Of a stretch of 32,000 bases of DNA, positions 1 to 24,407 are shown one piece after another. The translations under genes were made by a program, and so were the position numbers. The notes below the pieces were generated by a model. It searched no databases and was not told the origin of the DNA. It saw nothing but the letters and a program-made list of their open reading frames with translations. The stretch is from Thermofilum pendens Hrk 5 (GTDB lineage Archaea; Thermoproteota; Thermoprotei; Thermofilales; Thermofilaceae): positions 420,001 through 452,000 of the forward strand of contig NC_008698.1 in NCBI RefSeq assembly GCF_000015225.1. The letters are read 5' to 3'. The stretch's first letter is position 1. Every line of letters begins with the position of its first letter.

Positions 1-752
1 TCAACGAGAAGAGGCATGTCAGCATCATGTGGCAAGTGAGAGTTAAGGGTGTCCGCAATGCGCCTAAGGTGTGGGCATTAAAAAAGGAAGAAAAGCGGAA
101 GATAGCGATCGCTGAGATTGAGGAGGCAAATAAGGGTAATATAGATGAGCAAAGGGCGCTGAGAATAGCGCTATACTACGCCGCCGACGGAAAGTATTCG
201 CAGAACTCGACCGCACGCGTGCTACTATTCGCCGTTGGCAAAGAGCAAAACTGGGTTAGAACCGAGGGCTCAGTCAGGATTGCAAGGCTCCTCTACGAGA
301 AAGCGCCACAGCTACTGGAATACATGGCTGCGTCGGGCTGCAAGAAGGCAATGTTCCTAGCACGCCTCGCGCTTATTGGACCGCGAAAGCTGTGCATGTC
401 TTACCAGCGTCTCGGCCTTTATGCACCGGTTGCCGGCGCGTTGCTTAACCTCGTTATGGTTGCCGTCGGCGACGAGTACGCCTACATATACGCCCGCATA
501 CCCGTTAGTAACGCGCCCCCAGGCTGGTACGAGAGGGCTGTCAAAGAGGGTTGGACTGTGAATGTTGTCCGGTCAGGCGAGACGCCTTACTACGAGATCC
601 CCCAGGACTCGCTTTTCGAGCGCGCGGCGGAGGATTCGGAGCTCTGGGAGGCTCTCTATGCGTTCGCTAAGGCTAAGGCGGAGGTTAAGCCAGCCGCGAA
701 GAAGCTAGTCGAAGAACTACTGAAGATACGCCCAGCTGGGGCGAGAAATTAA
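1..752 (+). CDS. Cassette family protein, copy A (5' end cut by window edge; C-terminal ~250 aa present)
   Basis: Frame 3 is open from the window edge (..NEKRHVSIMWQVRVKGVRNAP..) to TAA at 750-752. It aligns throughout with ORFs 17003-18427 and 20538-21638 (VRVKGVRNAP, LYYAADGKY, SGCKKA, YARIPV..P.GWYERAV.EGWTVNVVRSGETPYYEIPQDSLFE). Confidence 0.8.
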   Translation, partial: NEKRHVSIMWQVRVKGVRNAPKVWALKKEEKRKIAIAEIEEANKGNIDEQRALRIALYYAADGKYSQNSTARVLLFAVGKEQNWVRTEGSVRIARLLYEKAPQLLEYMAASGCKKAMFLARLALIGPRKLCMSYQRLGLYAPVAGALLNLVMVAVGDEYAYIYARIPVSNAPPGWYERAVKEGWTVNVVRSGETPYYEIPQDSLFERAAEDSELWEALYAFAKAKAEVKPAAKKLVEELLKIRPAGARN

Positions 753-760
753 GAGAAAAG

Positions 761-793
761 ACCACCAGGAAAGCGGCGTCCGGCCCCCTCCTC
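761..793 (-). repeat. GC-rich cassette boundary motif, copy 1 (ACCACCAGGAAAGCGGCGTCCGGCCCCCTCCTC)
   Basis: Starts 8 nt after the copy A stop. Same motif as at 4536, 6999, 18436, 18787, 20497, 23748 and 24374. Confidence 0.85.
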
Positions 794-4535: not shown

Positions 4536-4560
4536 GAGGAGGGGGCCGGGCGCCTTTCCC
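4536..4560 (+). repeat. GC-rich cassette boundary motif, copy 2 (solo, 3' part missing: GAGGAGGGGGCCGGGCGCCTTTCCC)
   Basis: Matches the first 25 nt of the motif and runs into GCGCGCG instead of TGGTGG. No family gene is attached. Confidence 0.7.
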
Positions 4561-4781
4561 GCGCGCGAGAGTCTTGACGCTGGACGACTACGAGCTGGAG
4601 GGCTCGCTGGGAGAGCCCGAGGGCGGCTTCTTCTCCAAGGCTCTCGTAAAGGCGGTCAGGACGGCGAGGGCGGACCCTGACCGCCCGGAGGAGCGCTGTT
4701 ACTGGCGTGTGCCGCGCGCGGCACTTCGCGAAAACTTAATAACCTCCAGCCCAAGAATTCTTTACTGCGCCGAGCGCTATA

Positions 4782-4890
4782 GCCGGGGTAGCTCAGCTGG
4801 GAGAGCGCTCGGCTGAAGACCGAGTCGCGCACCCGGCATAGAGGTGCGCTGCGGGAGAGGTCCCGGGTTCAAATCCCGGCCCCGGCACCA
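4782..4890 (+). tRNA. tRNA-Phe(GAA) with a 33-nt non-canonical intron after the anticodon stem (4825-4857), CCA encoded
   Basis: Clean cloverleaf: GCCGGGG / GCTC-AGCTGGGA-GAGC / CTCGG-CTGAAGA-CCGAG / [insert] / AGGTC / CCGGG-TTCAAAT-CCCGG / CCCCGGC-A-CCA. The insert has a 7-bp hairpin GCGCACC..GGTGCGC. Confidence 0.9.
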
Positions 4891-5983: not shown

Positions 5984-5997
5984 TTTTCCAGGGAGAG

Positions 5998-6125
5998 TGG
6001 TGCGGGGGCCGGGATTCGAACCCGGGCAGGCCAACGCCAGCGGAGCTCCCATTGAATGTAATCCTGAGTATAGGCCCAGCCTCCAGGCCGGTCCGCCCCC
6101 TTTGACCTAGCTCGGGCACCCCCGC
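5998..6125 (-). tRNA. tRNA-Leu(CAG) candidate with two introns (about 6069-6091 and 6046-6062), CCA encoded
   Basis: The reverse complement reads GCGGGGG-TG-CCC-GAGCTAGGTCAAA-GGG-G-GCGGA ... TCCGC-TGGCGTTGGCCTGC-CCGGG-TTCGAAT-CCCGG-CCCCCGC-A-CCA. This is a type II tRNA with a long variable arm and A73. The only loop-like anticodon context between the stem halves is CTCAGG, flanked by 23-nt and 17-nt inserts. Confidence 0.7.
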
Positions 6126-6998: not shown

Positions 6999-7030
6999 GG
7001 GGAGGGGGCCGGGCGCCGCTTCCCTGGTGG
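6999..7030 (+). repeat. GC-rich cassette boundary motif, copy 3 (GGGGAGGGGGCCGGGCGCCGCTTCCCTGGTGG)
   Basis: Lies 6 nt beyond the TAG (7037-7039) that ends the out-of-frame C-terminal tail of copy B. Confidence 0.85.
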
Positions 7031-7036
7031 TTTACC

Positions 7037-8475
7037 CTATTCCTGCCCTGTCCCCAGCTTTTCGAGGTGATTCACGAGCTCCCAGGCTTTAGGATAGCTT
7101 TCCGCTTTTGTCTTCGTGAAGGCTGTCAGCGTTGCGCGTAGCTCCGCGTCGTAGCGGGCGTGCTCCATTAGCGAGGCGTGTGTAACCTGGTAGTACTCCC
7201 TACCCCACCCATTCGAACCACCCGGACGTCCCAGCCTTGAGCGCGTGCCTCCTCCACCCAGCCCGAAGGCACAGCTTCGACTGCGATCCTCGCGTAAATG
7301 TTGTTGGTGCTGGATACATAGGCTAGGTGTAGCTGTGCCCCTGCTATCTCGGCGTAGAACGGGTTGTTTCTCTGCCCGTTTTTCCTACCCTTCTTCCGAG
7401 GTAATCCGAAGCCGACGAATAGGAAGTGTTTGATCTTAGCGCATTTCGTCACCAATGAGACGAACTTGGTGTACTCGCTAGCCCTCTCCACGGCAAGCCT
7501 AGCGTTGATTATGGCGCTCTCAGCTGGGAGGTAGAAAACCTCGCTGCCTATCCTGAAGTGGAGCATCCGAAGCCTTAGAAAGAATGCGAGGTAGCCGTCT
7601 CCCAGGAAGGTAGTGAAAAGAGACGCTGGGTCGCCGTTGAGCTCCTTGCACTCCTCGACCAACCTGCGGAACTCCACGCGCTTCGTAGCGCCAATGAGCG
7701 TGGAGGCCCAGCCCAGCTCCTCCTCGTAACCGTAGACACGCACCTGCCACTGAAAGCTCAGCCTGGTGCTACCGAGTATGCCCGCCGTAACGCCGAGCCT
7801 GGCATCGTCGCTTGGAAAGGTTGCGAGCGTCGCTGGCAACTGCCACGGTTGAGTGGTACCGAAACGTACGTCGCTGTAGCGCCCGTGAGGGGGTGTCACA
7901 TCCGTAAGGATCCACCCCTTCTGCAGGCTCCTGAGAACATCGCTCGGAGTATTCACTAGAACCTGGGGAAACTCCGATTCGACCCAGAAGCCCTCCAATG
8001 GGATGTGTACGGACCAGCCATGCGTAGGCTTCGAGACCCTCACGTGCCAGTTCTCTCTAGGTATGTATACATGCCAGACTTTACCCTTCTTCTCAGCTCT
8101 AAGACCGTCGGCGCCGGCGTCGACGATTGCTTGCAACCTTCCTTTGAGCTCCATTACCGCGCCTCCTTCGCGTGGCTTCTCGTCGTCGTTCAGCAAGAGA
8201 TACTTCCTCAAGTCATAGTCGATGAACCTGTAAAACCTCGGGTAAACGCTGTCCGGCACGACGCTGTAGCCGTTTACGAGGAACTTGGTGAAGTCCCAGT
8301 TAATCCCAGACACCGTATCGTAGAGGCCGCGGTAGTGTATCTCGCCCCTCTTCTTCTTACCCCTGGACCTCCTCTTATCCTCTGTTCTGGTGGCGTAGAG
8401 GCTTAAAGCCGCCCTCCTCCACGTCTCCTCCCTAACAGTCTTCTCGATTTCCTCATACCCCATCATATCAACCAT
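7037..8475 (-). pseudogene. Cassette family protein, copy B (divergent paralogue; frame disrupted near 7187-7206)
   Basis: ORF 7168-8475 (435 aa) shares blocks with copies C and D (KVWHVYIP, GWILTD, FQWQVRVYG, FLGDGY, YARIAVEAVPSGWVEEARAQGWDVRVVRMGG). The conserved tail (EYYQVTHASLMEHARYDAELRATLTAFTKTKAESYPKAWELVNHLEKLGTGQE*) continues in another frame down to 7037. Confidence 0.75.
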
Positions 8476-8536
8476 ATTTCACCCGTCCTTAAATGGTGGA
8501 GGGGGCGCCCCTGCGAAGGCGTGCTCGAGGGTTATC
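8476..8536. promoter_or_regulatory. Conserved divergent control region of cassette B (TATA-like CCTTAAATGG followed by GGTGGAGGGGGCGCCCC)
   Basis: CACCCGTCCTTAAATGGTGGAGGGGGCGCCC recurs almost unchanged at 16945-16995 (opposite orientation) and 21912-21950. Confidence 0.5.
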
Positions 8537-8746
8537 GTGCGAACCATCGGCGCGCTTTCGCGTCTTCTGGCTAGCACTCTTAGGCGTGACGGGCTCTACG
8601 AGGCGCGCCTAGTAGAGGCTTTGGACGCAATCGAAGAGTTTTTAACCTCCGTGAGAGGCGCGACCCCGCAAGTCGAGGAAGACGAAGAGCTGGAGCGCGA
8701 GCTTAAGGGGTGCGTCGAGGAGCTTAGGGAGCTCGGACTAGCGTAA
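8537..8746 (+). CDS. Small acidic helical cassette partner protein, copy B (GTG start)
   Basis: 69 aa and about 85% identical to the ORF at 16705-16932 (RTIGALSRLLASTLRRD.LYEARLVEALDAIEEFL..V....PQVEEDEEL.RELK..VEELR.LGLA). It lacks the ATG and first 7 codons present in copy C. Confidence 0.55.
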   Translation: MRTIGALSRLLASTLRRDGLYEARLVEALDAIEEFLTSVRGATPQVEEDEELERELKGCVEELRELGLA

Positions 8747-8795
8747 AAAATCTTTTTCCCGTTTTCCCTTTTTCCCTGGTTTGTAAACCAAGGGG
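8747..8795 (+). terminator. T-rich tract plus hairpin CCCTGGTTTGTAAACCAAGGGG downstream of the small ORF
   Basis: AAAAAATCTTTTTCCCGTTTTCCCTTTTTCCC comes immediately after the stop and is followed by an imperfect palindrome at 8774-8795. The homologous arrangement is at 16608-16704. Confidence 0.45.
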
Positions 8796-8918
8796 CTTTC
8801 CCGTGTTTCGCGCGCTAGTTTCCCCTACGTTCGCGCGCGCCGACGCGCCGCGTCCGTATGCGCGCGTTGCCGCCGCAAAGCTTAAAACACATGTATATGT
8901 GGGTCTTGAAGGGTGTAG

Positions 8919-15772: not shown

Positions 15773-15884
15773 ACCTGCCGGAAAGGGTGCTCTAATCCTC
15801 AGCCCGCTTCTCAATGCGCGATGGGTCTAGCTACTCTTTGCTCTACGTTGCGGCGATGCTCGTTTACCGCGTCCTTAGCTATGC

Positions 15885-16553
15885 TCATACGAATTCTACG
15901 TTCGCGTGCCTCTTCTTCATATCCTCTTCGCCTACTCCGAGAATGTTCATCAAGGCGTATATCACGCCGTCAAAGAACACCATGACCGTGTCCTCGAAGA
16001 GCGTGCCCAGAGGCGCTAGAGGCTCGTACATTCCCAGCACTTGTCTCGCGAAGTAGTCGGTCTCCGCGGCTACCTTCGTTCTCCCAGGAACCACCACGAT
16101 GTGATCGCTGATCTTTCCTAGGGGTGACTCTGCAAAAGAAGTTATCGCTACCACGACAGCTTTAGCCCTCTTAGCCGCCGAGGCTACAGAAAGGACCACC
16201 TGGGTGCTTCCCGAGCCGCTTACAGCTATTAGAACGTCACCTTCCGAGATAGACGGCGTTATGGTTTCGCCTACTACGTACACGTTGAAGCCGAGGTGCA
16301 TTAACCTCATGGCGAAAGCTTTCGCCACCAGTCCGCTCCTGCCAGCGCCGACGACAAGGATCTTACTCTTCGTGGCGAGCGCTGAAGTCAGGATCTTCAG
16401 GAACCTGTTAACGCTTTCTTTGTCCAGCTCGCCTGCCACCTTCTCTATATAGGAGGCAATACTAACCATTGCTTTCGATACGTCTTCCGACACAAGCACC
16501 AACCCGTTGCGCGAAAAAGGAAAAGAAAGAAAAATATATTTCTTTTCACTCAC
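15885..16553 (-). CDS. hxlB: 6-phospho-3-hexuloisomerase-like SIS-domain protein
   Basis: VVGAGRSGLVAKAFAMRLMHLGFNVYVVGETITPS...VSGSGST and the C-terminal KKRHANVE match the archaeal PHI family closely. The true start may be the internal ATG at about 16469. Confidence 0.75.
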   Translation of the reverse strand: MSEKKYIFLSFPFSRNGLVLVSEDVSKAMVSIASYIEKVAGELDKESVNRFLKILTSALATKSKILVVGAGRSGLVAKAFAMRLMHLGFNVYVVGETITPSISEGDVLIAVSGSGSTQVVLSVASAAKRAKAVVVAITSFAESPLGKISDHIVVVPGRTKVAAETDYFARQVLGMYEPLAPLGTLFEDTVMVFFDGVIYALMNILGVGEEDMKKRHANVEFV

Positions 16554-16607
16554 GCGAAGCTAGCGCGCGTCATTACCCTGAGCTTAAAACGCGGAAATAG
16601 GGAAAAG

Positions 16608-16631
16608 CTCCCTGGTTTGTAAACCTGGGAG
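16608..16631. repeat. Hairpin CTCCCTGGTTTGTAAACCTGGGAG (extra copy of the GGTTTGTAAACC element)
   Basis: CTCCC/GGGAG and GGTTT/AAACC arms. A second copy of the core sits in the opposite orientation at 16660-16676 (CTACAAACCAGGGGGG). Confidence 0.6.
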
Positions 16632-16659
16632 AAAGCTAAAACCGCGAACCCTCACACGT

Positions 16660-16704
16660 CTACAAACCAGGGGGGAAGGGAAAAACGGGAATAAAAAGAG
16701 TTTT
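16660..16704 (-). terminator. T-rich tract plus CCCTGGTTTGTAG element downstream of small ORF copy C
   Basis: The reverse complement reads TAAAAAACTCTTTTTATTCCCGTTTTTCCCTTCCCCCCTGGTTTGTAG, colinear with 8747-8790. Confidence 0.45.
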
Positions 16705-16932
16705 TTACGCGAGCCCTAGCCCTCTCAGCTCCTCGACGCCCTCCTCAAGCTCTCTCGCTAGCTCTTCGTCCTCCTCGACCTGCGGGGCGCTTCTCACGGA
16801 TGCGAGGAATTCCTCTATCGCGTCCAAAGCCTCTACTAGGCGCGCCTCGTAGAGCTCGTCGCGCCTAAGAGTGCTCGCCAGTAGCCGCGAAAGCGCGCCT
16901 ATCGTTCGCACGGTAACCCTCGGGTCACTCAT
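16705..16932 (-). CDS. Small acidic helical cassette partner protein, copy C (ATG start, 75 aa)
   Basis: MSDPRVTVRTIGALSRLLASTLRRDELYEARLVEALDAIEEFLASVRSAPQVEEDEELARELEEGVEELRGLGLA. Start set at ATG 16932, with GGTGGT upstream. The 140-aa ORF-track version extends antisense into the family gene. Confidence 0.6.
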   Translation of the reverse strand: MSDPRVTVRTIGALSRLLASTLRRDELYEARLVEALDAIEEFLASVRSAPQVEEDEELARELEEGVEELRGLGLA

Positions 16933-17002
16933 CAACCACCACTGACCCCTGATGCCGCGCCCTCGCAGGGCGCCCCCTCCACCATATAAGGACGGGTGAA
17001 AT
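16933..17002. promoter_or_regulatory. Conserved divergent control region of cassette C (TATA-like CCATATAAGG / CCTTATATGG)
   Basis: Colinear with 8476-8536, plus about 34 extra nt that include the small-ORF ATG. The TATA-like box is at 16983-16991. Confidence 0.5.
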
Positions 17003-18427
17003 ATGGTTGAGGAGTACATGAAGGGAGATGGAGCCGTGACGGGGGAGGGCGTCGAAGAGTTCGACGAGGGGTTCATTCGCGAGAAGCTTAAAGAGCTTCT
17101 GAGGAAAGCTATCTTCCACCGATTCAACTACAGTGGTCTCGAGGCTACGTGCACGCGCGTAATGTGGGAGTTGATTAACCTCAAGGCTGAGTACCAGCGC
17201 TACGGCGAGGTCTACGTAGAGCTTACCAACAAAGCGGAGGTAGGCGTCGAGAAGGCTTGCAGAATAGCGAAGAGAGTGTTTAGAGAAGCCTTGGAGCACT
17301 TCGAAGAGCTCAAGGTACGGAGGACTGGGAAGGCAACGTGGAAGGTTAAGATTCCGGGCGAGAAGTGTAGAATCTACGTGTATAGGAAGCCAGCCGGGCA
17401 CTGGGCTGTTGAGATTCGCTTGTATATCAGAGTCACCAAGTTCATTGTTCCCGACACTCTAAGGCTTCCACCGGAGCTACTAGTAGACGCACAGACGGGC
17501 TGGTTGTACGGAGATGCATCGTACATAGCGAGCCGCAAAGATGTCAGAATGGGCACCTCACAAGCATGGCAAGTAACCTCCTTCCCCGGTTTCTGGCCGG
17601 GGAAGGAGGTCGAAGTATACATCAGAAGTGTAGTAATCCACGAGACTCATGTCAGCGTCGTGTGGACTGTTAGAGTTAAGGGTGTCCGCAACGCTCCTAA
17701 GGAATGGAGGCTAAGGAAGGAAGAAAAGCAGAGTGTTATCCTGTCAGAGATTAAGGCAGCGAACGAAGGAGAAATAGACATTTTCAGGGCTGTTCGAATT
17801 GCAACATACTACGCCGCAGACGGAAAGTATCCAGGGCCAAACACGGCTAAACGTTTGCTGGAATTCGGGGTTGGCAACGAGCCGTACTGGATTAGAGTCG
17901 AGGGTGCGGTGAGGATTGCGAAGCTTTTACACGAGGAGGTACCACAGCTATTAGCATTCATGTGCAGTGCTGGTTGCAAGAAGGCACGGTATCTTGCCCG
18001 CCTCGCGCTCGTTGAGCCGAAACGCAACCTCTCGCCGCGCTACTTAGAGGTCGCCGGCGTACGGATGAACCTGCAACTTGTAGGTACTAAGAACTACCGT
18101 ACTCTTATAGCAAGAGTTTTCATCACAAATAATAATGAGGAGTTACTCAGGGGTTTTCCTGAGCGGGCAAGGGAAGAGGGTCTCATAGTTAAAAAGATGA
18201 AGATAGACAAGAAGTACTACGGCTACTACGCTGGCTTGCGCGAGTTGATGAGCTATGCCGATAAACACTTAGAGGCGTATGACATATTGATCGACTTTGT
18301 CAAGGGGGAGCTCGAAGAAATGCCTCTAGACCACCCCGCCCGCCAAAGCGTCGAAAGGCTTCTTGAACGCCTGAAAAAAGCTAGAGAACGCGCACTCAGA
18401 AAGCACGCTGGGGGCGAAAACAACTAA
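17003..18427 (+). CDS. Cassette family protein, copy C (only apparently intact full-length copy; twin LAGLIDADG-like motifs)
   Basis: 474-aa uninterrupted ORF. Motifs QTGWLYGDASY (aa 164-174) and IATYYAADGKY (aa 266-276) are each followed by beta-rich sequence. About 60-65% identical to copy D over the first ~330 aa. An alternative start is ATG 17018. Confidence 0.8.
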   Translation: MVEEYMKGDGAVTGEGVEEFDEGFIREKLKELLRKAIFHRFNYSGLEATCTRVMWELINLKAEYQRYGEVYVELTNKAEVGVEKACRIAKRVFREALEHFEELKVRRTGKATWKVKIPGEKCRIYVYRKPAGHWAVEIRLYIRVTKFIVPDTLRLPPELLVDAQTGWLYGDASYIASRKDVRMGTSQAWQVTSFPGFWPGKEVEVYIRSVVIHETHVSVVWTVRVKGVRNAPKEWRLRKEEKQSVILSEIKAANEGEIDIFRAVRIATYYAADGKYPGPNTAKRLLEFGVGNEPYWIRVEGAVRIAKLLHEEVPQLLAFMCSAGCKKARYLARLALVEPKRNLSPRYLEVAGVRMNLQLVGTKNYRTLIARVFITNNNEELLRGFPERAREEGLIVKKMKIDKKYYGYYAGLRELMSYADKHLEAYDILIDFVKGELEEMPLDHPARQSVERLLERLKKARERALRKHAGGENN

Positions 18428-18435
18428 AGCGTAAG

Positions 18436-18467
18436 ACCACCAGGGAAAGGCGCCCAGCCCCCTCCTC
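18436..18467 (-). repeat. GC-rich cassette boundary motif, copy 4 (ACCACCAGGGAAAGGCGCCCAGCCCCCTCCTC)
   Basis: Starts 8 nt after the copy C stop codon. Confidence 0.85.
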
Positions 18468-18643
18468 TTTACTCTGCGACCACAGTTAAAGTTAACGCAT
18501 TCTTTTCTCTCGAGAAAGAGACTGTTTCCCACGATCTTTCCACTTCCTGGTTCTCGGCACGACTATCCCGAGGTGTTAATTAAGCGCCCATACCTCTCCC
18601 AAGTCTCTTACCTATGCGTCTACGCCGTCAAAAGCTGGACGTA

Positions 18644-18741
18644 TGGCGGGCCGGCCGGGATTCGAACCCGGGACCTACGGGTTAAGAGCCTCGACCCAGA
18701 GTTGCTTAGACCGCCGCTCTACCTAGCTGAGCTACCGGCCC
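18644..18741 (-). tRNA. tRNA-Lys(CUU) with a ~21-nt non-canonical intron inside the 5' anticodon stem (about 18690-18710), CCA encoded
   Basis: The reverse complement reads GGGCCGG-TA-GCTC-AGCTAGGTA-GAGC-G-GCGG[TCTAAGCAACTCTGGGTCGAG]G-CTCTTAA-CCCGT-AGGTC-CCGGG-TTCGAAT-CCCGG-CCGGCCC-G-CCA. Confidence 0.85.
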
Positions 18742-18786
18742 CATGTGTCGCGTTCTGCATAACCCCTCCTTTTTAATAAACTTTGC

Positions 18787-18852
18787 GGAGGAGAGAGCCG
18801 GGCGCCTTTCCCTGGCGGCGCGCACAAGGAGGGGGCGTTCCCTTGAAGCGGG
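18787..18852 (+). repeat. Apparent collapsed cassette: boundary motif copy 5 (GGAGGAGAGAGCCGGGCGCCTTTCCCTGGCGG) followed 10 nt later by a control-region-like GGAGGGGGCGTTCCCTTGAAGCGG
   Basis: 18787-18818 matches the boundary motif. 18829-18852 resembles GGAGGGGGCGCCCCTGCGAAGGCG from the cassette control region. No family ORF lies between them. Confidence 0.5.
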
Positions 18853-18947
18853 TAAAAGCTATCAGCTTGCACGTAGCGACGCGTTGCAAAGATAGTTTAA
18901 AACTGATCTGCGACGGCGTTACTCTCTACCTCCTATACAACGCGTGT

Positions 18948-19634
18948 TCATAGATGCGGTGTCGTGACTGTTATCGACTTTGCTCCCATCTCCTCTAAGA
19001 GCAGAGGGTCTAGGGACTGAAGAATCTCTTTGAACTCCTTCAGGCCTAGTATGAGCACACCTTCCTCCACTAGGGGACCTACGTCGTAGAGGTTGACTAT
19101 CAACGGGTAGAGCTTAGCTTGTTTACCTAGCCGTATTCCTATGTCTGCTCCCGACTTCATTTTGTCAGCCAGCGCTAAGCACCGTTCAAGATGCGCTTTC
19201 GCGGCTTTTTTCAGAGAAGACGGCGGGGCTCTTCGCCACCTCTTACAGTCAACAACTAATACGAGGTTGTCGCTCGCAGCTATAAGGTCTACCTCGAATC
19301 TTCTTCCTAAGTTTTTAAAGCGGAGATTCCGCTTGGTCCTAAGCCCGAAGCTTTCCGCTAGGTAGCAGCAGAGTTCCTCAAAGCTACTCCACCCGGAGCT
19401 TAACGCCAAGGATACAACGTCGTAGCCGTGTAGCCAAGCCTTAACGAGAACCCCCGGTAGAGACTCTTCGATGTAGCCGTTGACTACGGGTATTTCTAGG
19501 CTTTCTAGGACCAGCTGGACGAACTCCTGTGGAAGACCAGTTTCAGACACTATCTCGGTGATGCTGGCTACCTTACCCCGGGAAAGAAGTTCTGCGGCTT
19601 TCTTGAGGACTAACTCTACCTTAAAGCTTATCAA
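18948..19634 (-). CDS. Hypothetical protein with N-terminal wHTH-like region and PD-(D/E)xK nuclease-like core
   Basis: FEVDLIAASDNLVLVVDCKRW fits a D...(D/E)xK restriction-endonuclease-fold motif. The N-terminal ~60 aa is helical (ITEIVSETGLPQEFVQLVLESL). Confidence 0.35.
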   Translation of the reverse strand: MISFKVELVLKKAAELLSRGKVASITEIVSETGLPQEFVQLVLESLEIPVVNGYIEESLPGVLVKAWLHGYDVVSLALSSGWSSFEELCCYLAESFGLRTKRNLRFKNLGRRFEVDLIAASDNLVLVVDCKRWRRAPPSSLKKAAKAHLERCLALADKMKSGADIGIRLGKQAKLYPLIVNLYDVGPLVEEGVLILGLKEFKEILQSLDPLLLEEMGAKSITVTTPHL

Positions 19635-19653
19635 ACTAGACCCTGCTGGAATC

Positions 19654-20079
19654 CTACACTATTATGGAGGCCATCGCGGAGAGCTTTGGCCATCTCTCGG
19701 CGGCTTCCTTGGCTAGAGGCCCTCGAATCTCGGTACCTTTGGGCTCTCCCTCGGGCGTTATTATCACAACGGCGTTATCCTCGAACGCAATCCAGCTCCC
19801 GTCAGGTCTCCGGTAGGGTCTTCTCTGCCTGATCACTATTGCGCGCATAACCTGCTTTCTAAGCTCCGGTTTGCCCGCCCTAATGGAAACTATAACAATA
19901 TCGCCTACCGCCGCCCCAGGTATGCGCCGCCACACGGCTTTGTAGTGCGGGACTCCTATTACTTTTGCCAGCGTAGCACCAGAGTTATCGGCAACCTTTA
20001 CTAGGCTCTCCATGAATACTCCTGGTGTAAGGCCTAGCCTATAGGAAACACCAACTGTTTTCGGACCTCTCTTAGCCAC
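19654..20079 (-). CDS. rpl14: 50S ribosomal protein L14 (uL14)
   Basis: VADNSGA...V.....[42 protein letters not shown]. Confidence 0.92.
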
Positions 20080-20084
20080 TCAGA

Positions 20085-20420
20085 TCACCCGCCAACCTTT
20101 CCTATAACTACGAACGAGACAGACTTTGCCAACGGGCGTGTCTCCGCGACGATGACCTCGTCGCCGGGCTTCACCGGTATGCAGGGCGGCACACGTACAT
20201 GCTTCTTTTTACGCCTTACTTCATACCTTTTATACTTCTCGTTGTAGTAAAGATACTCGTGTACAGCCACCGCCACGTTGTGCATTTTAACCTTCTCTAC
20301 GCGTAGCCTCAGCACTTGTCCTCTCACGGGCAACTCCCCATGCCACGGGCACAGAGGGTCGTTACACTTCATTTGCGGAGGGCTTACTCCGGGAATACCC
20401 ACACCCTTCAACTTTGCCAT
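20085..20420 (-). CDS. rps17: 30S ribosomal protein S17 (uS17)
   Basis: CNDPLCPWHGELPVRGQVL...KMHNVAVAVHEYLYYNEKYKRYEVRRKKKHVRVPPC..VKPGDEVIVAETRPLAKSVSFVV. Confidence 0.92.
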   Translation of the reverse strand: MAKLKGVGIPGVSPPQMKCNDPLCPWHGELPVRGQVLRLRVEKVKMHNVAVAVHEYLYYNEKYKRYEVRRKKKHVRVPPCIPVKPGDEVIVAETRPLAKSVSFVVIGKVGG

Positions 20421-20468
20421 TGCTGTGCACCCTCAACGAGAGACGTGCGAGTGCGAGATACGTAACAG

Positions 20469-20483
20469 GTTATTATAAAGCTT
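20469..20483 (-). promoter_or_regulatory. TATA-like box AAGCTTTATAATAAC upstream of rps17
   Basis: AT-rich box about 55 nt upstream of the rps17 ATG, with GAGGGTG about 9 nt before the ATG. It lies between rps17 and boundary motif copy 6. Confidence 0.35.
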
Positions 20484-20496
20484 ACGGATACTCAAT

Positions 20497-20528
20497 GAGG
20501 AGGGGGCCGGGGCGCCTTTCTCTGGTGG
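20497..20528 (+). repeat. GC-rich cassette boundary motif, copy 6 (GAGGAGGGGGCCGGGGCGCCTTTCTCTGGTGG)
   Basis: Ends 9 nt before the copy D stop codon (20538-20540, minus strand). Confidence 0.85.
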
Positions 20529-20537
20529 TTTTACCCC

Positions 20538-21922
20538 TTATTCTAGTGCCCCAGCTGGGCGTATCTTCAGTAGTTCTTCGACTAGCTTCTTCGCGGCTGG
20601 CTTAACCTCCGCCTTAGCCTTAGCGAACGCATAGAGAGCCTCCCAAAGCTCCGGGTCCTCGCTCGCGTGCTCGAAAAGCGAGTCCTGGGGGATCTCGTAG
20701 TAAGGCGTCTCGCCTGACCGGACAACATTCACAGTCCACCCCTCCTCTACTGCTCTCTCGTACCAGCCTTGAGGCGCGTTATCAACGGGTATGCGAGCGT
20801 AGATGTAGGCGTACTCGTCGCCGACAGTAACCAAGGGGAGGTTCAGCATCGCGCCGGCAACCGGTGCATAAAGGCCGAGACGTTGGTAGGCGCGTGGCGC
20901 GCGAGAAAGGGCTAAGCGCGTCAGGAATTCCGCCTTTTTACACCCTGAGACACGCAGGAAGGCTAGTAGTTGCGGAGTCCTTTCGAGAAGCAACCGCGCT
21001 AACCTGAGGGACTGCTCCGTCCTAACCCGGTACGACTTACTGCCTACTGCGAATTCCAGCACACGTTTAGCCGTGTTTGACCCTGGATACTTACCATCAG
21101 AGGCGTATAGTAGTGCAAGCTTTACCGCCCTGACGATGTCGACTTTTCCTTCGTTCGCCTCCTCGATCTCCGCCAAGATAATACCCTGTTTCTCCTTTTT
21201 GGGGAGACTCCACCATCGAGGCGCGTTGCGGACACCCTTAACTCTGACAGCCCACATTATGCTGACGTGAGTCTCGTGAACCGTTACGCTTTCGATGTAG
21301 ACTGTCACCTCCTTCTCCGGCCAGAAACCGGGGAAGGAGACGGCCTGCCACACCTGCGTAGTAGTCATCTCGACTTCTTTCTTGTCTGCGCGGTATGTTG
21401 CGTCGCCGTATATCCAACCCGTTTGAGCTGCTACCAGCAATTCGGAAAGCTCCAAGACATCGGGAAGTCTCAGCTTAGCGACCTTGAGGTATAAACGGAT
21501 TTCGACGCTCCAGTACCCGCCTGGCTTTAAGTGCATGTATATCCTCCACTTTGTGCCTGGAATCTTAACCTTCCACGCCGTCCTGCCCGTCCTTCGTATC
21601 TTCAGTTCTTCGAAGTGTTCTAAAGCCTCCTTCGCCACCCTCCGCGCGATCCTGAAAGCCTTCTCAACGCGAACCTCTTCTCTGCTGACGAGCTCTACGT
21701 AGACCTCGCCGTATTGCGCATAATTGGCCTTTATGTTGCCAGCTCCCGCGTGACTTCTTCATGCGTAGCCTCGAACCCCCTGTAACCGTCGCGCGGAAAC
21801 AACGCCTTCCTGAGAAGCTCCCTGATCTTCTCGCGAATGAACTCCTCGTCGAACTCGGCCCCTGCCTCTCCCGCCACAGCCCTTTCATTCCCCGTCATTA
21901 CTACTTCATTCATACCTACCAC
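20538..21922 (-). pseudogene. Cassette family protein, copy D (frame disrupted near 21723-21748)
   Basis: ORF 21731-21922 (..EFDEEFIREKIRELLRKALF..FEATHEEVTRELAT*) aligns to the N-terminus of copy C. The continuation NIKANYAQYGEVYVELVSREEVRVEKAFRIARRVAKEALEHFEELK... is open in a different frame and merges with ORF 20538-21638. Confidence 0.8.
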
Positions 21923-22030
21923 CCGTCCTTAAACGGTGGACGGGGCGCCCTACGCGTACGCGCTATCAGGGGTCAGCGTGGCGGGAAGCATGAGTAGTGA
22001 GCGCTTCGCGCGCGATGCGCGCGGCACACG

Positions 22031-22315
22031 CTACCACAGCATGACACGTCTCTTAAGCCTCTCCTCGGGTCTACCAACGAGGAAGGCTCCATCGACGAGT
22101 AGTTCTTTGCCGTCGGGTAGCTTGATCCTGAGCACTACTTGAGCCTTAAAGATTCTCTTCTTGGGCCCTCCGGGTACTCCTATTACTATCGTCTTGTAGG
22201 TCTCATCCAGTATGAGCCCGCAGATCCCTACCTGACTGGGGTTTTTCGACTTAACGACGCAGGCTTCAAGACCTATAAGCTCGTGCCGGAGTATGTTCTT
22301 CGGAGTTATCTTCAT
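22031..22315 (-). CDS. rnp1: RNase P protein component 1 (Rpp29/Pop4)
   Basis: HELIGLEACVVKSKNPSQVGICGLILDETYKTIVI....KKRIFK......I.LPDGKELLVDGAFLVGRPEERLK. Confidence 0.88.
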   Translation of the reverse strand: MKITPKNILRHELIGLEACVVKSKNPSQVGICGLILDETYKTIVIGVPGGPKKRIFKAQVVLRIKLPDGKELLVDGAFLVGRPEERLKRRVMLW

Positions 22316-22362
22316 AATCGGTCAAGAATTCTTTCCAATGCTTAAGCTTTCCCTTAGAACCA

Positions 22363-22617
22363 CTACTGCTGGGATGCGCTGCCCTGAACTGGAGGTTGCT
22401 CTGCCGAAGGGGCTTTTCTTCGGAGCTCGTTCTCAATTGTAAGGATCCTGGCTATCTCGCGTTTAATCTTGCGTATCGATGCCACGTTTTCGAGCGAGCC
22501 TCGATGAGCTTGCGCCTTAAGCCTGGCCAGCTCTCCCCGTAGTTCCTGCAGTCTTTTCTGTCGCTCCTCCCTGCTCATCTTCCTGAGCTCTTCAGCTTGT
22601 TTCGCCATACGCTTCAC
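22363..22617 (-). CDS. rpl29: 50S ribosomal protein L29 (uL29)
   Basis: ELRKMSREERQKRLQELRGELARLKAQAHRGSLENVASIRKIKREIARILT. The start may be ATG 22608. Confidence 0.88.
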   Translation of the reverse strand: MKRMAKQAEELRKMSREERQKRLQELRGELARLKAQAHRGSLENVASIRKIKREIARILTIENELRRKAPSAEQPPVQGSASQQ

Positions 22618-23222
22618 CCTACCTGTGTCACGCCCTTTATGAGTATTGTGTCAGGCATTTTCGCAGGCTTCATTATCCTAACCTTTACGCCGTACATCCC
22701 CAGCTTGAGTAGTACATGCACAATTGCCTCGTCCACTAGTTCTTCCCCGGGTTCTCCGGACTTGGGGACGTAACCTCTAGTGAATTTCTCGGTGCGATGC
22801 CTCTGGCTTGTTAGCTTACCGCTTATCACTATTTCTGCTCCTCGGGCGCCGGCAGCCATTATCCTGTTTAGAGCAACTAGGGCGGCTCTGCGGAACCTTA
22901 CACCTCTCACCAGGGCTCTCGCCACTCTGTAAGCCATTATTTTCGCGTTCAGATCCTGGTTCGGCACCTCGACAACGTCTATCTGAGGGTTCTCGATCCC
23001 GAACTCCCTCTCTAGGACTTCAGCTATAGCCTTTATGTTAGCTCCCTTCCTGCCTATGACGAGGCCCGGTACTCCAGCGTACACTATCACCTTCGTTCCT
23101 ATCGGTGTCTTGAAGAACTGTGCATGCACGTAGTTTGCACGTACAAGTTGTCGTTGCAGGTACTCGTTGAGCATCATGTACTGGAGACCCTGGCTGATTA
23201 CCTTCCTCGCCGTCGTCGACAT
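22614..23222 (-). CDS. rps3: 30S ribosomal protein S3 (uS3, KH domain)
   Basis: VIVYAGVPGLVIGRKGANIKAIAEVLEREFG is the KH motif. 202 aa, in the operon position between L22 and L29. Confidence 0.92.
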   Translation of the reverse strand: MSTTARKVISQGLQYMMLNEYLQRQLVRANYVHAQFFKTPIGTKVIVYAGVPGLVIGRKGANIKAIAEVLEREFGIENPQIDVVEVPNQDLNAKIMAYRVARALVRGVRFRRAALVALNRIMAAGARGAEIVISGKLTSQRHRTEKFTRGYVPKSGEPGEELVDEAIVHVLLKLGMYGVKVRIMKPAKMPDTILIKGVTQVG

Positions 23223-23230
23223 CCTCCCAC

Positions 23231-23686
23231 CTATTCTACCTCCCTAGCTATTATTTCAACGTGAACTAGCTGGTCGTAGTACGGCGTGGCCCTTCCAAAG
23301 GCTCTTGGGAGGTAATTCCTTATCTTCATCCCTTTATGCGCCGCGGCATGCACTATGCGGAGATTCTCCACGTTAAGTCCCTTAAACTCAGCGTTATTTT
23401 CCAGGTTGTCTAGAAGTTTTAACAAGTTCTTTGCAACCTTGACCGGGTACCTGCCTGGTCCCGGAACGTCGCTTCGATGCCCAACCTTTTTATTGTACCT
23501 CTTAAGGGGCACAGACCTTTTCATCTCGGCGATCTCGGTAAGTATTCTCCTAGCCTCCTCGATGCTCTTCCCCTTAATAAGCCTCAATGTTTCTACTGTG
23601 AGCTTATACGACATGCTAACATCCCGTAGAGAGGCTTTGGCTGTCCTCTCGGGCTCTAACTCCACTGAATACCGCCAAGTCGGCAT
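23231..23686 (-). CDS. rpl22: 50S ribosomal protein L22 (uL22)
   Basis: AKASLRDVSMSYKLTVETLRLIKGKSIEEARRIL.......VPLKRYNKKVGHR......GRYPVK.AK..LKLL.N.E.NAE. Confidence 0.9.
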   Translation of the reverse strand: MPTWRYSVELEPERTAKASLRDVSMSYKLTVETLRLIKGKSIEEARRILTEIAEMKRSVPLKRYNKKVGHRSDVPGPGRYPVKVAKNLLKLLDNLENNAEFKGLNVENLRIVHAAAHKGMKIRNYLPRAFGRATPYYDQLVHVEIIAREVE

Positions 23687-23747: not shown

Positions 23748-23785
23748 GAGGAAGAGGTCGGCGCCGCTCCCCTGTTTGCCTTACC
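23748..23785 (+). repeat. GC-rich cassette boundary motif, copy 7 (degenerate: GAGGAAGAGGTCGGCGCCGCTCCCCTGTTTGCCTTACC)
   Basis: Aligns with GAGGAGGGGGCCGGGGCGCCTTTCTCTGGTGGTTTTACC with several substitutions. It is followed by the relic gene tail. Confidence 0.6.
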
Positions 23786-23789
23786 CCTT

Positions 23790-24135
23790 TTATTCTTGCT
23801 TTGTCCCAGCTTGTTTAATTCTTAGCAGTTCTTCAACAAGCCTACGCGCAACGGGCTTAGCCTGCGCCTTTGCGAGGACGAAGCGGTATAGCGCCTCCCA
23901 GAGCGTCGCATCCTCCGCTGTGTGCTCGAAAAGAGAGTCCTGGGAACCTGGTAGTAAAGCGTACTGCCTGACCTGACAACCTTCACAGTCTACCCCTCCT
24001 CGACCGCCTTCTCGTACCAGCCTGAGGGCGCGCTATCAGCTGGTATCCTAGCGTAGATGTAGGCGTGGACTATATCCCATAAGCACGAAGGTTCAACAAC
24101 ACACCAACAACCGACGCATAGAAGCTAAGCCACCG
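23790..24135 (-). pseudogene. Cassette family protein, relic E (C-terminal ~115 codons; nonsense plus frameshift)
   Basis: The reverse complement reads HAYIYARIPADSAPSGWYEKAVEEG*TVKVVRSGSTLYYQVP. After a 1-nt frame slip it reads DSLFEHTAEDATLWEALYRFVLAKAQAKPVARRLVEELLRIKQAGTKQE*. TGG->TAG lies at 23990-23992 and the frame slip near 23939-23944. Confidence 0.75.
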
Positions 24136-24373
24136 GTAGGCCACCTTCTGCCCGGGTTCCTTACCCTCCTTACTCGGCCCGCCGTAGGCAACATATAAGA
24201 TGTAACTGACCTTGTCACACCTAGCGTCACGCGACACGAACCTCACGTATTCCCATGTACGCTCAACCGCGACGCGGGCGTTGAAAGCAGAGCCTTCTGG
24301 TTGAAAGATGCTCCATTACCGCGCTTCCTTCTCTCTCGCGCGAGCTGGGAAACCCAGACAGATAAAGCGGAAA

Positions 24374-24407
24374 ACCGCCAGGAAAAAGGCGCCCCGCCCC
24401 CCTCCTC
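24374..24407 (-). repeat. GC-rich cassette boundary motif, copy 8 (ACCGCCAGGAAAAAGGCGCCCCGCCCCCCTCCTC)
   Basis: Inverted relative to copy 7. The preceding ~45 nt (GAGCTGGGAAACCCAGACAGATAAAGCGGAAA) resembles the 3' end and stop context of a plus-strand family gene. Confidence 0.7.

What the first reader, a model, noticed from the sequence alone, without database searches (positions are those of the whole stretch)
20421..22030. Cassette D sits inside the conserved rnp1-rps17 junction of the ribosomal protein operon
The gene order rpl22-rps3-rpl29-rnp1-rps17-rpl14 is present here on the minus strand. In archaea these genes are normally tightly packed. Here 1.6 kb separates the rnp1 stop (22031) from the rps17 start (20420). 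That gap is filled by boundary motif copy 6, frame-disrupted family gene D, its control region, and the first few codons of the small ORF, which butt directly against the rnp1 stop. A TATA-like box (20469-20483) lies between the motif and rps17, so rps17-rpl14 may now be expressed from their own promoter. Insertion into the core r-protein operon is strong evidence that the cassette is, or was, mobile.
Basis: partly seen in the sequence, partly recalled or inferred. Interest (0 to 1): 0.75.

Follow-up and report, generated by a model that had tools for sequence, protein, structure and literature searches.

The report
Selfish gene cassette splitting ribosomal operon
In Thermofilum pendens, a 1.5-kb damaged copy of a multi-copy gene cassette sits exactly between the RNase P subunit gene rnp1 and the ribosomal protein gene rps17. 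All 27 related archaeal loci examined lack it there, and its protein looks like a homing endonuclease, so it is a real lineage-specific insertion, but at a gap that already had its own promoter.

Summary
The window is Thermofilum pendens. rpl22-rps3-rpl29-rnp1 and rps17-rpl14 lie on the minus strand, separated by 1610 bp (20421-22030).

In 27 related loci (family Thermofilaceae and more distant lineages) the same junction is 0-204 nt. One sister lineage has 594 nt of unrelated DNA. None carries the cassette.

An Infirmifilum empty site aligns with T. pendens 20496 downward. This defines the insert as 20497-22030 (1534 bp): from the rnp1 stop codon to the last base of the 28-nt boundary motif. 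There are no terminal inverted repeats and no target duplication.

The TATA box ahead of rps17 is not new. Each of the seven Thermofilaceae empty-site spacers read has one, so the insert landed at an existing transcription-unit boundary.

Gene D has one frameshift. Its family has at least 13 T. pendens paralogs, one labelled PaREP2b, and evolves under purifying selection (dN/dS about 0.2). Its core is predicted to be a double LAGLIDADG fold with invariant Asp residues 102 residues apart.

Best reading: a decaying copy of a free-standing, homing-endonuclease-like selfish cassette. The insertion is shown. The mobility mechanism is inferred.

Interest is moderate.

The parts
22031..22315 (-). rnp1 (RNase P subunit Rpp29). 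It is intact and its C-terminus has the same length as in relatives. The stop codon TAG is at 22031-22033.
   Evidence: Pfam PF01868, E = 1.4e-22. C-terminal comparison with six relatives.
20497..22030 (-). The inserted DNA (1534 bp). It runs from the base after the rnp1 stop codon to the last base of the boundary motif.
   Evidence: The Infirmifilum (L001) empty-site spacer aligns with T. pendens starting at 20496, immediately after ...CCTCCTC. In L001 the alignment starts 1 nt after the rnp1 stop. None of 200 shuffles reached the score.
21990..22030 (+). Stub of the divergent small ORF (ATG plus about 13 codons). The remaining 60 or so codons and the terminator hairpin seen in cassettes B and C are missing.
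   Evidence: Alignment with the left ends of cassettes B and C. Sequence read.
21914..21989 (.). Bidirectional control region. On the minus strand it holds the motif-like GGGCGCCCCGTCC (21950-21938) followed by a weakened TATA, TTTAAGG (21933-21927). Copies B and C have CATATAAGG here.
   Evidence: 57-nt inverted repeat with copy C at 84% and 31-nt direct repeat with copy B at 94%. Alignment.
21731..21913 (-). Family gene D, N-terminal frame (about 58 codons). It ends at a premature TAA caused by a 1-nt frameshift at about 21734-21740.
   Evidence: tblastn of paralogs: residues 1-57 match in one frame and residues 55-458 in another.
20538..21737 (-). Family gene D, main frame (about 400 codons, open; stop TAA at 20538-20540). 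It includes both LAGLIDADG-like motifs (GWIYGDATY and LLYASDGKY).
   Evidence: 70% amino-acid identity to P0006 and P0007. dN/dS of 0.18-0.24 against copies A and C. Alignments A1 and A5.
20497..20525 (-). Boundary motif CCAGAGAAAGGCGCCCCGGCCCCCTCCTC. This is the 3' terminus of the cassette; homology among all copies ends at its last base.
   Evidence: No significant RNA structure.
20421..20496 (-). Ancestral rnp1-rps17 spacer, retained whole. It holds the TATA box TTTATAATAA at 20470-20479 and a GAGGGTG Shine-Dalgarno-like element ahead of the ATG.
   Evidence: A TATA-like box is conserved in the seven Thermofilaceae empty-site spacers read. Significant alignment with L001.
20085..20420 (-). 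rps17
   Evidence: Pfam PF00366.
19654..20079 (-). rpl14
   Evidence: Pfam PF00238.
16650..18467 (+). Cassette C, the intact reference copy. It comprises the terminator hairpin region, the small ORF 16705-16932 (minus strand), the control region, family gene 17003-18427 (P0001) and the motif 18440-18467.
6999..8800 (-). Cassette B. It comprises the motif 6999-7033, a family gene 7049-8475 with a frameshift near 7207-7249, the control region and the small ORF 8537-8746 (plus strand).
3..791 (+). Cassette A, cut by the window start. It holds the C-terminal 249 codons of P0006 and the motif 761-791. Its 3' 398 nt are 88% identical to copy D.
23757..24345 (-). Cassette remnant E1, directly upstream of the rpl22 promoter. 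It is a truncated, internally deleted and frame-shifted family gene with a degenerate motif at 23757-23795, about 21 nt before the ancestral rpl22 TATA.

Best explanation
On the branch leading to Thermofilum pendens, one copy of a multi-copy gene cassette was inserted between the rnp1 stop codon and the pre-existing rps17 promoter.

The cassette layout is: small acidic ORF transcribed divergently, then a shared promoter region, then a gene of about 470 codons, then a conserved 28-nt terminal motif.

The large gene encodes a protein whose core is a pseudo-dimeric (double-motif) LAGLIDADG fold with both metal-binding aspartates conserved. That makes it a free-standing homing-endonuclease-like gene. 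The family is distantly related to the 'PaREP2b' repeat family of the Thermoproteales.

Most likely mechanism (inferred, not shown): an intact paralog makes a double-strand break in an intergenic site, and repair copies a cassette into it. One end is defined by the 28-nt motif. The other end is joined irregularly, which would explain the truncated small ORF.

The insert lies in the same direction as the operon. It is upstream of an intact promoter and downstream of an intact stop codon, so it is nearly neutral for the host. It then began to decay: one frameshift, a weakened TATA box and loss of the small ORF.

Ectopic gene conversion among copies continues to homogenise the cassette ends.
For: SHOWN:
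- Empty sites in 27 related loci, including the sister clade.
- Insert boundaries mapped to the nucleotide against the Infirmifilum spacer.
- rnp1 C-terminus and rps17 promoter intact and ancestral.
- At least 13 paralogs in T. pendens, and only 44 cluster representatives at E <= 1e-3 among 1.8 billion proteins.
- Of the four complete copies in the window plus remnant E1, B and D have a frameshift and E1 is a truncated remnant; further 3'-end-only relics also remain. This is the decay pattern expected of selfish genes.
- Purifying selection on intact stretches: dN/dS of 0.18-0.25 for the large gene and 0.12 for the small ORF.
- Mosaic structure. The last 114 codons of A versus D have dS of 0.22, while the preceding 125 codons are saturated. 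Proteins B and C are 25% identical, yet their small ORF and promoter are 82-98% identical at the nucleotide level.
- The motif is far better conserved than the adjacent coding sequence, and homology between copies stops at its last base.

FOLD:
- AlphaFold models have pLDDT of 84 (full length) and 90 (core).
- Foldseek with the core model against PDB: the top seven hits are all double-LAGLIDADG proteins (bI3 maturase at E = 5.9e-4, I-WcaI, WhiA N-terminal domain, I-SceI, I-Tsp061I), with probability 0.89-1.0.
- Against the BFVD viral structure library, the named top hits are mostly LAGLIDADG endonucleases or large enzymes of the kind that often carry inteins; several hits are unnamed. The best TM-scores are 0.47/0.53.
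- D171 and D273-G274 are 102 residues apart and invariant in the 10-sequence alignment A1 and the 19-sequence core alignment A5, and at least 90% conserved in the 36-sequence alignment A4. Q190 is invariant in all three. K327 is invariant in A1 and A5 and at least 90% conserved in A4.
Against: - Classical LAGLIDADG genes home to one allelic site. Many divergent copies at unrelated intergenic sites in one chromosome look more like transposition or old duplication.
- Copies are old. The closest paralog of D is 70% identical at the amino-acid level, with synonymous sites saturated over most of the gene. There is no sign of a recent burst.
- The closest empty site belongs to an organism whose r-protein genes are also saturated at synonymous sites, so the insertion date is poorly bounded.
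- Structural matches have low TM-scores (0.3-0.5). Pfam LAGLIDADG models score below threshold (best E = 0.0017), and a PDB sequence profile search found nothing.
- No relatives were found on plasmids, phages or IMG/VR contigs.
- Nuclease activity, the target site and the role of the motif are all untested.
- The rest of the T. pendens genome could not be retrieved, so only five copies were examined at the DNA level.
Confidence: 0.6

Rival explanations
1. The family is a domesticated DNA-binding regulator rather than a mobile element. The LAGLIDADG-like proteins would have lost nuclease function, like WhiA or intron maturases. They would bind the GGCGCC...CCCCTCC motif, which lies just upstream of TATA boxes, regulating their own promoter and neighbouring translation-related genes. 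Copies would have arisen by ordinary duplication.
For: - A motif-like GGGCGCCCCCTCC sits 2-3 nt upstream of the cassette's own TATA box, in the same orientation as the 3' motif. The 3' motif lies 7-21 nt upstream of the TATA boxes of rps17, rpl22, tRNA-Leu, the L37Ae gene and a trmI-like gene.
- Purifying selection acts on the genes.
- WhiA and a maturase are among the best structural matches.
- Two distant homologs hit LAGLIDADG_WhiA weakly.
Against: - Both catalytic-position aspartates are invariant across 19 diverse core sequences and at least 90% conserved across 36. From general knowledge, LAGLIDADG proteins that have lost cleavage activity usually lose these residues.
- Two of the four complete copies in 32 kb are frame-shifted, and truncated remnants of further copies remain.
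- The motif and the genes are absent from the same promoters in every relative. They are therefore not part of a conserved regulon.
- Short intergenic spacers alone would place any tolerated insert close to a TATA box.
Confidence: 0.2
2. The cassette is a passenger mobilised in trans by a recombinase encoded elsewhere, i.e. a non-autonomous transposon or integron-like cassette. The 28-nt motif would be the recombination site. The LAGLIDADG-like protein would be cargo, for example a nuclease/inhibitor addiction or defence pair together with the small acidic ORF.
For: - The terminal motif is precisely conserved and homology ends at its last base.
- Solo motif-bearing 3' ends occur at 4536-4563, 18788-18815 and 24378-24407.
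- A second motif-like copy lies in direct orientation inside the cassette.
- PaREP2b elements have been called putative transposons in Pyrobaculum (PMC3558965).
- The two-gene layout has a 75-residue, very acidic partner under strong constraint (dN/dS 0.12).
Against: - There are no terminal inverted repeats or target-site duplications.
- No transposase or integrase domain is present in or next to any copy in the window.
- The solo motifs keep the last codons of a family gene. They therefore look like deletion relics, not recombination scars.
- The hypothesis that tRNA-Leu was inverted between two inverted motif copies was tested and failed: the T. pendens orientation is the ancestral one.
Confidence: 0.15
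3. The long spacer is ancestral. The cassette was present at this junction in the common ancestor of the Thermofilaceae and was lost from the other lineages.
For: One sister lineage (L085/L086) also has an enlarged spacer of 594 nt at this junction.
Against: - The 594-nt spacer shows no similarity to the cassette at the DNA, protein or motif level.
- The other member of the sister clade (L084) and all outgroups have 41-204 nt spacers. In L001 the spacer is colinear with the T. pendens residual spacer right up to the stop codon.
- This reading would require many independent precise deletions.
Confidence: 0.03

Closest known systems
Free-standing homing endonuclease genes, such as phage T4 seg/mob genes and free-standing LAGLIDADG genes of organelles and phages
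   Same: - An endonuclease-type gene with no intron or intein.
- It is lodged in an intergenic spacer between highly conserved essential genes and is co-oriented with them.
- Empty sites exist in relatives.
- Copies decay by frameshift and deletion, and gene-conversion tracts are seen.
- The core has a predicted double-LAGLIDADG fold with conserved acidic residues.
   Different: - There are many (at least 13) divergent copies at unrelated sites of one cellular chromosome, rather than one allelic site.
- The protein has extra N-terminal (about 150 aa) and C-terminal (about 100 aa) domains.
- The gene has a constant partner ORF and a conserved 28-nt terminal motif.
- Cleavage activity and target are unknown.
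- Sequence models of LAGLIDADG families do not reach threshold.
paREP2 / PaREP2b repeated elements of Pyrobaculum (Pfam PF07775)
   Same: - A repeated, often frame-shifted gene family of Thermoproteales chromosomes.
- It is associated with strain-specific regions and has been called a putative transposon (PMC3558965).
- One T. pendens paralog (P0004) carries the name PaREP2b in UniProt.
- Distant homologs occur in Pyrobaculum and Vulcanisaeta MAGs.
   Different: - No T. pendens protein matches PF07775. Only 1 of 36 family representatives does, at E = 0.0035 and below threshold.
- A Pyrobaculum homolog examined has different neighbours and neither the small ORF nor the motif.
Insertion sequences / MITE-type transposons of archaea
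   Same: Multi-copy. Found in intergenic positions. Leaves relics. Sits at positions where gene order differs between relatives.
   Different: No transposase fold, no terminal inverted repeats, no target-site duplication. One end of copy D is truncated.
WhiA and LAGLIDADG maturases (domesticated LAGLIDADG proteins)
   Same: They are among the top structural matches. They share the two-domain LAGLIDADG scaffold with added domains. A role in binding a promoter-proximal motif is possible.
   Different: Catalytic-position Asp residues are invariant here. The genes are lineage-specific, multi-copy and decaying, rather than single-copy and conserved.

Membership tests
LAGLIDADG homing endonucleases (double-motif, monomeric type) | Two LAGLIDADG-type motifs about 100 residues apart, each ending in a conserved acidic residue | tested here: met
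   The motifs are GW(I/L)xGD at D171 and (Y/L)xxxDG at D273-G274, 102 residues apart. They are invariant in alignments A1 and A5 and at least 90% conserved in A4. Distant members show canonical forms such as GLLLTDGSI and FAVLGDGNI.
LAGLIDADG homing endonucleases (double-motif, monomeric type) | Alpha-beta-beta-alpha-beta-beta-alpha fold, present twice, resembling solved enzymes | tested here: met
LAGLIDADG homing endonucleases (double-motif, monomeric type) | Significant match to curated LAGLIDADG sequence models (PF00961, PF03161, PF14528, PF14527) | tested here: not met
   The T. pendens proteins give no hit. Two distant homologs reach only E = 0.0017-0.013, below the gathering score. A PDB profile search found no LAGLIDADG protein.
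LAGLIDADG homing endonucleases (double-motif, monomeric type) | Site-specific cleavage of a long (about 20 bp) target, followed by copying of the gene into the cut site | not testable with these tools
   Only indirect evidence is available: the empty site, gene-conversion mosaics and a conserved 28-nt motif.
PaREP2b (Pfam PF07775) | Match to the PF07775 model at or above its threshold | tested here: not met
   No T. pendens protein matches. One of 36 representatives matches at E = 0.0035. The name comes from a UniProt label on P0004 only.
PaREP2b (Pfam PF07775) | Repeated within one Thermoproteales genome, with frequent frameshifts and stop codons | tested here: met
   At least 13 paralogs exist. 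Of the four complete copies in the window, B and D are frame-shifted; E1 and other relics are truncated remnants.
DNA transposon / insertion sequence | Terminal inverted repeats and target-site duplication | tested here: not met
   No inverted repeats link the cassette ends in B, C or D. The junctions read TAG|CGTG... and ...CCTC|ATTG, with no duplication relative to the L001 empty site.
DNA transposon / insertion sequence | Encoded transposase or integrase domain | tested here: not met
   No Pfam or NCBIfam hit for either ORF of the cassette.
Archaeal S10/spc-type ribosomal protein operon, rnp1-rps17 junction | rnp1 and rps17 adjacent and co-transcribed with little or no spacer | tested here: not met
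   T. pendens has 1610 bp here. Other Thermofilaceae have 41-204 nt with an internal TATA box. Only more distant lineages have 0-23 nt.

The most novel reading that the evidence does not exclude
The PaREP2b-like cassettes could be a previously unrecognised kind of chromosomal mobile element in the Thermoproteota. They would be free-standing LAGLIDADG endonuclease genes that spread to many unrelated promoter-proximal intergenic sites of a cellular chromosome ('intergenic homing'). Each would carry a conserved 28-nt terminal site that serves as the enzyme's recognition or repair-priming sequence, plus a small acidic partner protein that controls the nuclease. Such elements would also seed chromosomal rearrangements around the ribosomal protein genes.
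Probability: 0.2. Interest if true: 0.7.

Novelty: new variant of a known kind. Interest (0 to 1): 0.5.

Why it matters
This is a clean, nucleotide-resolved example of a selfish gene cassette lodged inside one of the most conserved gene clusters of archaea, with many empty sites for comparison.

It explains why this was tolerated. The cassette landed exactly between a stop codon and an existing internal promoter, in the operon's own direction.

It also gives a structural identity (LAGLIDADG-like nuclease fold with conserved catalytic aspartates) to a family that has no Pfam or NCBIfam match here and is named only by a 'PaREP2b' label. The one relevant paper found calls PaREP2b a putative transposon, without a stated mechanism.

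If intact paralogs cleave DNA, they would be thermostable, long-target endonucleases with a testable candidate site. The paREP2-type repeats that mark genome differences in Pyrobaculum and Thermofilum would then gain a mechanism.

For annotation, the finding warns that the rps17 promoter is ancestral and not a product of the insertion.

Tried and rejected
1. Fetching the other T. pendens copies. The look-up of encoding contigs has no record for P0001 or P0002, so only the five copies in the window could be studied at the DNA level.
2. Sequence-level family assignment. Pfam, NCBIfam, and PDB phmmer and profile searches gave nothing significant for the large or the small protein. A second word-indexed homolog search with an alignment returned only T. 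pendens proteins and one metagenome protein.
3. The motif as a structured RNA or hairpin terminator. Rejected: z-scores range from -0.7 to +1.8, there is no Rfam hit and there is no T-tract.
4. The motif as coding sequence. Rejected: the frames differ between copies.
5. The motif as a tRNA 3'-end (att-like) fragment. It shares only a 10-mer, GGGGGCCGGG, with GC-rich acceptor stems, which is not convincing.
6. Direct repeats of the motif at the far (small-ORF) end of the cassette. The only resemblance is a weak AAACCAGGG...AAGG, so no claim is made.
7. Inversion of tRNA-Leu by recombination between the two inverted motif copies at 18440-18467 and 18788-18815. Rejected: seven relatives have the T. 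pendens orientation, and only the L084/L085 clade differs.
8. The L085/L086 594-nt spacer as a cassette relic. No similarity by blastn, tblastx, tblastn at E <= 10, or fuzzy motif search, and no Rfam hit.
9. Plasmid, phage and IMG/VR searches for the family gave no match.
11. The Pyrobaculum homolog context (L081-L083) has no shared accessory ORF or motif.
Full report
**What is there**

The window comes from Thermofilum pendens. Family protein C (17003-18427) is 100% identical to a T. pendens protein, and all nine close homologs are from that species.

On the minus strand, Pfam identifies rpl22 (23231-23686), rps3 (22614-23222), rpl29 (22363-22617), rnp1/Rpp29 (22031-22315), rps17 (20085-20420) and rpl14 (19654-20079). 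Between the rnp1 stop codon (TAG, 22031-22033) and the rps17 ATG (20420) lie 1610 bp.

Reading along the minus strand, the interval holds:
- The first 13 or so codons of a divergent small ORF (ATG at 21990 on the plus strand).
- A control region shared with cassettes B and C.
- A family gene in two frames, joined by a single frameshift near 21737.
- The boundary motif at 20497-20525.
- 76 nt containing a TATA box at 20470-20479.

The motif is not a chance match. None of 100 shuffles gave any match.

**Empty sites**

A scan of one genome per species with Rps3 returned six members of the Thermofilaceae (L001-L006). A metagenome scan with Rps17 returned 28 loci.

In all six genome loci and in the six metagenome loci tabulated, the block rpl22-rps3-rpl29-rnp1-rps17-rpl14 is contiguous and is followed by a conserved 228-aa nuclease-like gene. 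A tRNA-Leu-like gene follows it in ten relatives.

The rnp1-rps17 spacer lengths are:
- 41-204 nt in 18 Thermofilaceae-like loci.
- 594 nt in two nearly identical contigs (L085/L086).
- 0-23 nt in six more distant lineages.

No family gene was found in any of the 108 related loci scanned with the window's family proteins, and no boundary motif in the six genome loci or the L085 spacer scanned for it. A neighbour-joining tree of six concatenated proteins places L084+L085 as the sister clade of T. pendens. L084 has a 69-nt spacer. Gain on the T. pendens branch is therefore by far the most parsimonious reading.

The 594-nt spacer of L085/L086 shows no relation to the cassette. It does show that this junction tolerates extra DNA.

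**Boundaries**

The Infirmifilum (L001) spacer aligns with the T. pendens sequence 20496 downward: ATTG-GGATCATCGCAAAGTTT-TAA-AAAC... against ATTGAGTATC--CGTAAGCTTTATAATAAC.... The score is 14, against a maximum of 12 in 200 shuffles.

- In L001 this stretch begins 1 nt after the rnp1 stop.
- In T. pendens it begins immediately after the last base of the motif (...CCTCCTC|ATTGAG).

The insert is therefore 20497-22030 (1534 bp). The ancestral spacer is retained whole on the rps17 side, and the rnp1 C-terminus is unchanged. There is no target duplication, and no terminal inverted repeats occur in copies B, C or D.

The motif is the true 3' terminus of the element. In eight copies, similarity ends at its last base and the sequence beyond it is unrelated. 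The other end of copy D is truncated: about 60 codons of the small ORF and its terminator hairpin are missing.

**The promoter is ancestral**

All seven Thermofilaceae empty-site spacers read contain a TATA-like box 35-50 nt upstream of rps17. Examples are AAAGTTTTAAAAA, GGTTAAAAAG, AGTTTATGTAA, AGTTTATAAGA, GGTTTATTTAC, and CGTTTTTATATAG in L084. Most also have a GGTG-type ribosome-binding element.

So in this family rnp1|rps17 is already a boundary between transcription units. The cassette did not force rps17-rpl14 onto a new promoter. It landed upstream of an old one.

The same geometry recurs upstream of rpl22. A truncated, internally deleted and frame-shifted family gene (E1, about 23796-24345) ends with a degenerate motif (23757-23795), about 21 nt before the rpl22 TATA. 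That flank again aligns with Infirmifilum.

Because D is co-oriented with the operon, read-through from rnp1 could still reach rps17. This is an inference.

**What the cassette encodes**

The large protein has no Pfam, NCBIfam or PDB sequence match.

An exhaustive profile search of 1.8 billion representatives found only 44 relatives at E <= 1e-3.

Alignments show two motifs, GW(I/L)xGD and (L/Y)xxxDG, 102 residues apart. The aspartates are invariant in alignments A1 and A5 and at least 90% conserved in A4. Q190 is invariant in all three; K327 is invariant in A1 and A5 and at least 90% conserved in A4. Distant members have textbook forms such as GLLLTDGSI and FAVLGDGNI.

AlphaFold models are confident: pLDDT 84 for the full length and 90 for the core. 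They show the alpha-beta-beta-alpha-beta-beta-alpha unit twice.

Foldseek results with the core model:
- Against PDB, the top seven hits are exclusively double-LAGLIDADG proteins: bI3 maturase (E = 5.9e-4), I-WcaI, the WhiA N-terminal domain, I-SceI and I-Tsp061I, with probability 0.89-1.0.
- Against viral models, the named top hits are mostly LAGLIDADG endonucleases or large enzymes of the kind that often carry inteins, and several hits are unnamed. The best TM-scores are 0.47/0.53.

TM-scores are modest and Pfam LAGLIDADG models stay below threshold. I therefore treat the fold assignment as well supported (about 0.8) and nuclease activity as inferred.

The name 'PaREP2b' attached to one paralog is not backed by the Pfam model. 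Literature on PaREP2b calls it a putative transposon linked to strain-specific regions in Pyrobaculum (PMC3558965). I found no paper linking it to LAGLIDADG, though the library is incomplete.

**Evolutionary behaviour**

- Family genes and the small ORF are under purifying selection, with dN/dS of 0.18-0.25 and 0.12 respectively.
- Of the four complete copies in the window, B and D are frame-shifted. E1 is a truncated remnant, and three more places keep only the 3' end.
- Copies are mosaics. The last 114 codons of A and D differ at dS of 0.22, while the preceding 125 codons are saturated.
- Proteins B and C are 25% identical, yet their small ORF and promoter are 82-98% identical in DNA. This indicates ectopic gene conversion, concentrated at the cassette ends.

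Synonymous sites of the host r-protein genes are saturated between T. pendens and its nearest available relative. The insertion can therefore only be dated to 'after that split'.

No relatives were found on plasmids, phages or viral contigs.

**Mechanism and alternatives**

I favour a homing-endonuclease-like selfish cassette copied into a break by repair, with the motif-defined end precise and the other end irregular. The main difficulty is that known LAGLIDADG genes occupy one allelic site, rather than many unrelated sites in one chromosome.

A domesticated regulator is the main rival. A motif-like GGGCGCCCCCTCC lies 2-3 nt upstream of the cassette's own TATA box. The terminal motif lies 7-21 nt upstream of the TATA boxes of rps17, rpl22, tRNA-Leu, the L37Ae gene and a trmI-like gene. 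Against this rival stand the invariant aspartates, the decay of copies and their absence from relatives. In addition, short spacers alone would place any tolerated insert near a TATA box.

Mobilisation in trans by an unseen recombinase cannot be excluded without the rest of the genome. A specific prediction of motif-mediated inversion around tRNA-Leu failed.

**Verdict**

The 'new promoter' idea is wrong, and the mobility mechanism is plausible but unproven. Interest is moderate.

Noticed in passing
window 23757-24407: Between the divergent rpl22 and L37Ae promoters lies a 'graveyard' of cassette pieces. E1 is a minus-strand family gene lacking its first 100 or so codons, with an internal deletion of about 200 codons and frameshifts. 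Butting against its 5' end is the last 50 or so nt of a plus-strand family gene with its motif (24335-24407), 14 nt upstream of the L37Ae TATA.
   Followed up: partly
window 18788-18815 and 4536-4563: Solo copies of the terminal motif. The one at 4536-4563 and the one at 24378-24407 retain a few bases resembling the stop-codon region of a family gene; the copy at 18788-18815 does not clearly do so. The copy at 18788 lies 7 nt upstream of the tRNA-Leu TATA and enlarges the nucl228-tRNA-Leu spacer to 206 nt, against 67-76 nt in five of the seven relatives with the same tRNA orientation. A second motif-like GAACGCCCCCTCC lies 17 nt further upstream.
   Followed up: partly
window 14006-23686 versus L084 1-5600 and L086: In the sister clade (L084, L086) the SIS-domain gene (with the helicase gene in L084) lies upstream of rpl22. 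In T. pendens they lie at the opposite (tRNA-Leu) end of the r-protein block. The whole block is therefore inverted relative to them. In T. pendens both junctions are occupied by cassette material (intact cassette C; remnants E1/E2, in inverted orientation). Which lineage rearranged could not be decided, because the outgroups lack these neighbours.
   Followed up: partly
window 6999-8800 versus 16650-18467: Cassettes B and C encode large proteins only 25% identical. Yet their small ORF (87% amino-acid identity) and promoter (43 nt at 98%) are nearly the same. This modular shuffling or gene conversion is confined to the 5' module. Copy B also has a frameshift near 7207-7249 that cuts off its C-terminus.
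   Followed up: partly
L085 3405-4000 (and L086): A Thermofilum-like metagenome lineage has 594 nt of unrelated, unannotated DNA at the same rnp1-rps17 junction. There is no Rfam hit and only a 70-aa ORF overlapping the rnp1 stop. The junction seems to be a recurrent landing place.
   Followed up: partly
window 18948-19634: A 228-aa protein with a weak Mrr/NERD-type nuclease signature (Pfam E = 7.6e-4, below cut-off) directly follows rpl14 in T. pendens and in all twelve Thermofilaceae loci tabulated, in place of the usual rpl24-rps4e continuation of the operon. Its function is unknown.
   Followed up: no
window 870-997, 4782-4887, 5991-6026: Two intron-containing tRNA genes are found by Rfam but missed by ARAGORN. 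A third tRNA-like 3' end on the minus strand at 5991-6026 is called by neither tool. Motif copies lie 80-220 nt upstream of the first two.
   Followed up: no
window 16610-16672 and 8770-8800: Beyond the stop of the small ORF, both intact cassettes carry a palindrome CCYTGGTTTGTAAACCAGGG next to T-runs. In C it is duplicated as a 22-nt inverted repeat. It is probably the small ORF's terminator and marks the far end of cassette homology.
   Followed up: no
L084 5480-5595, L085 5519-5631: In the sister clade the tRNA-Leu-like gene after the nuclease-like gene is in the opposite orientation to that in T. pendens and seven other relatives. It also carries a longer insert (probably an intron). This is a local inversion or replacement specific to that clade.
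   Followed up: no
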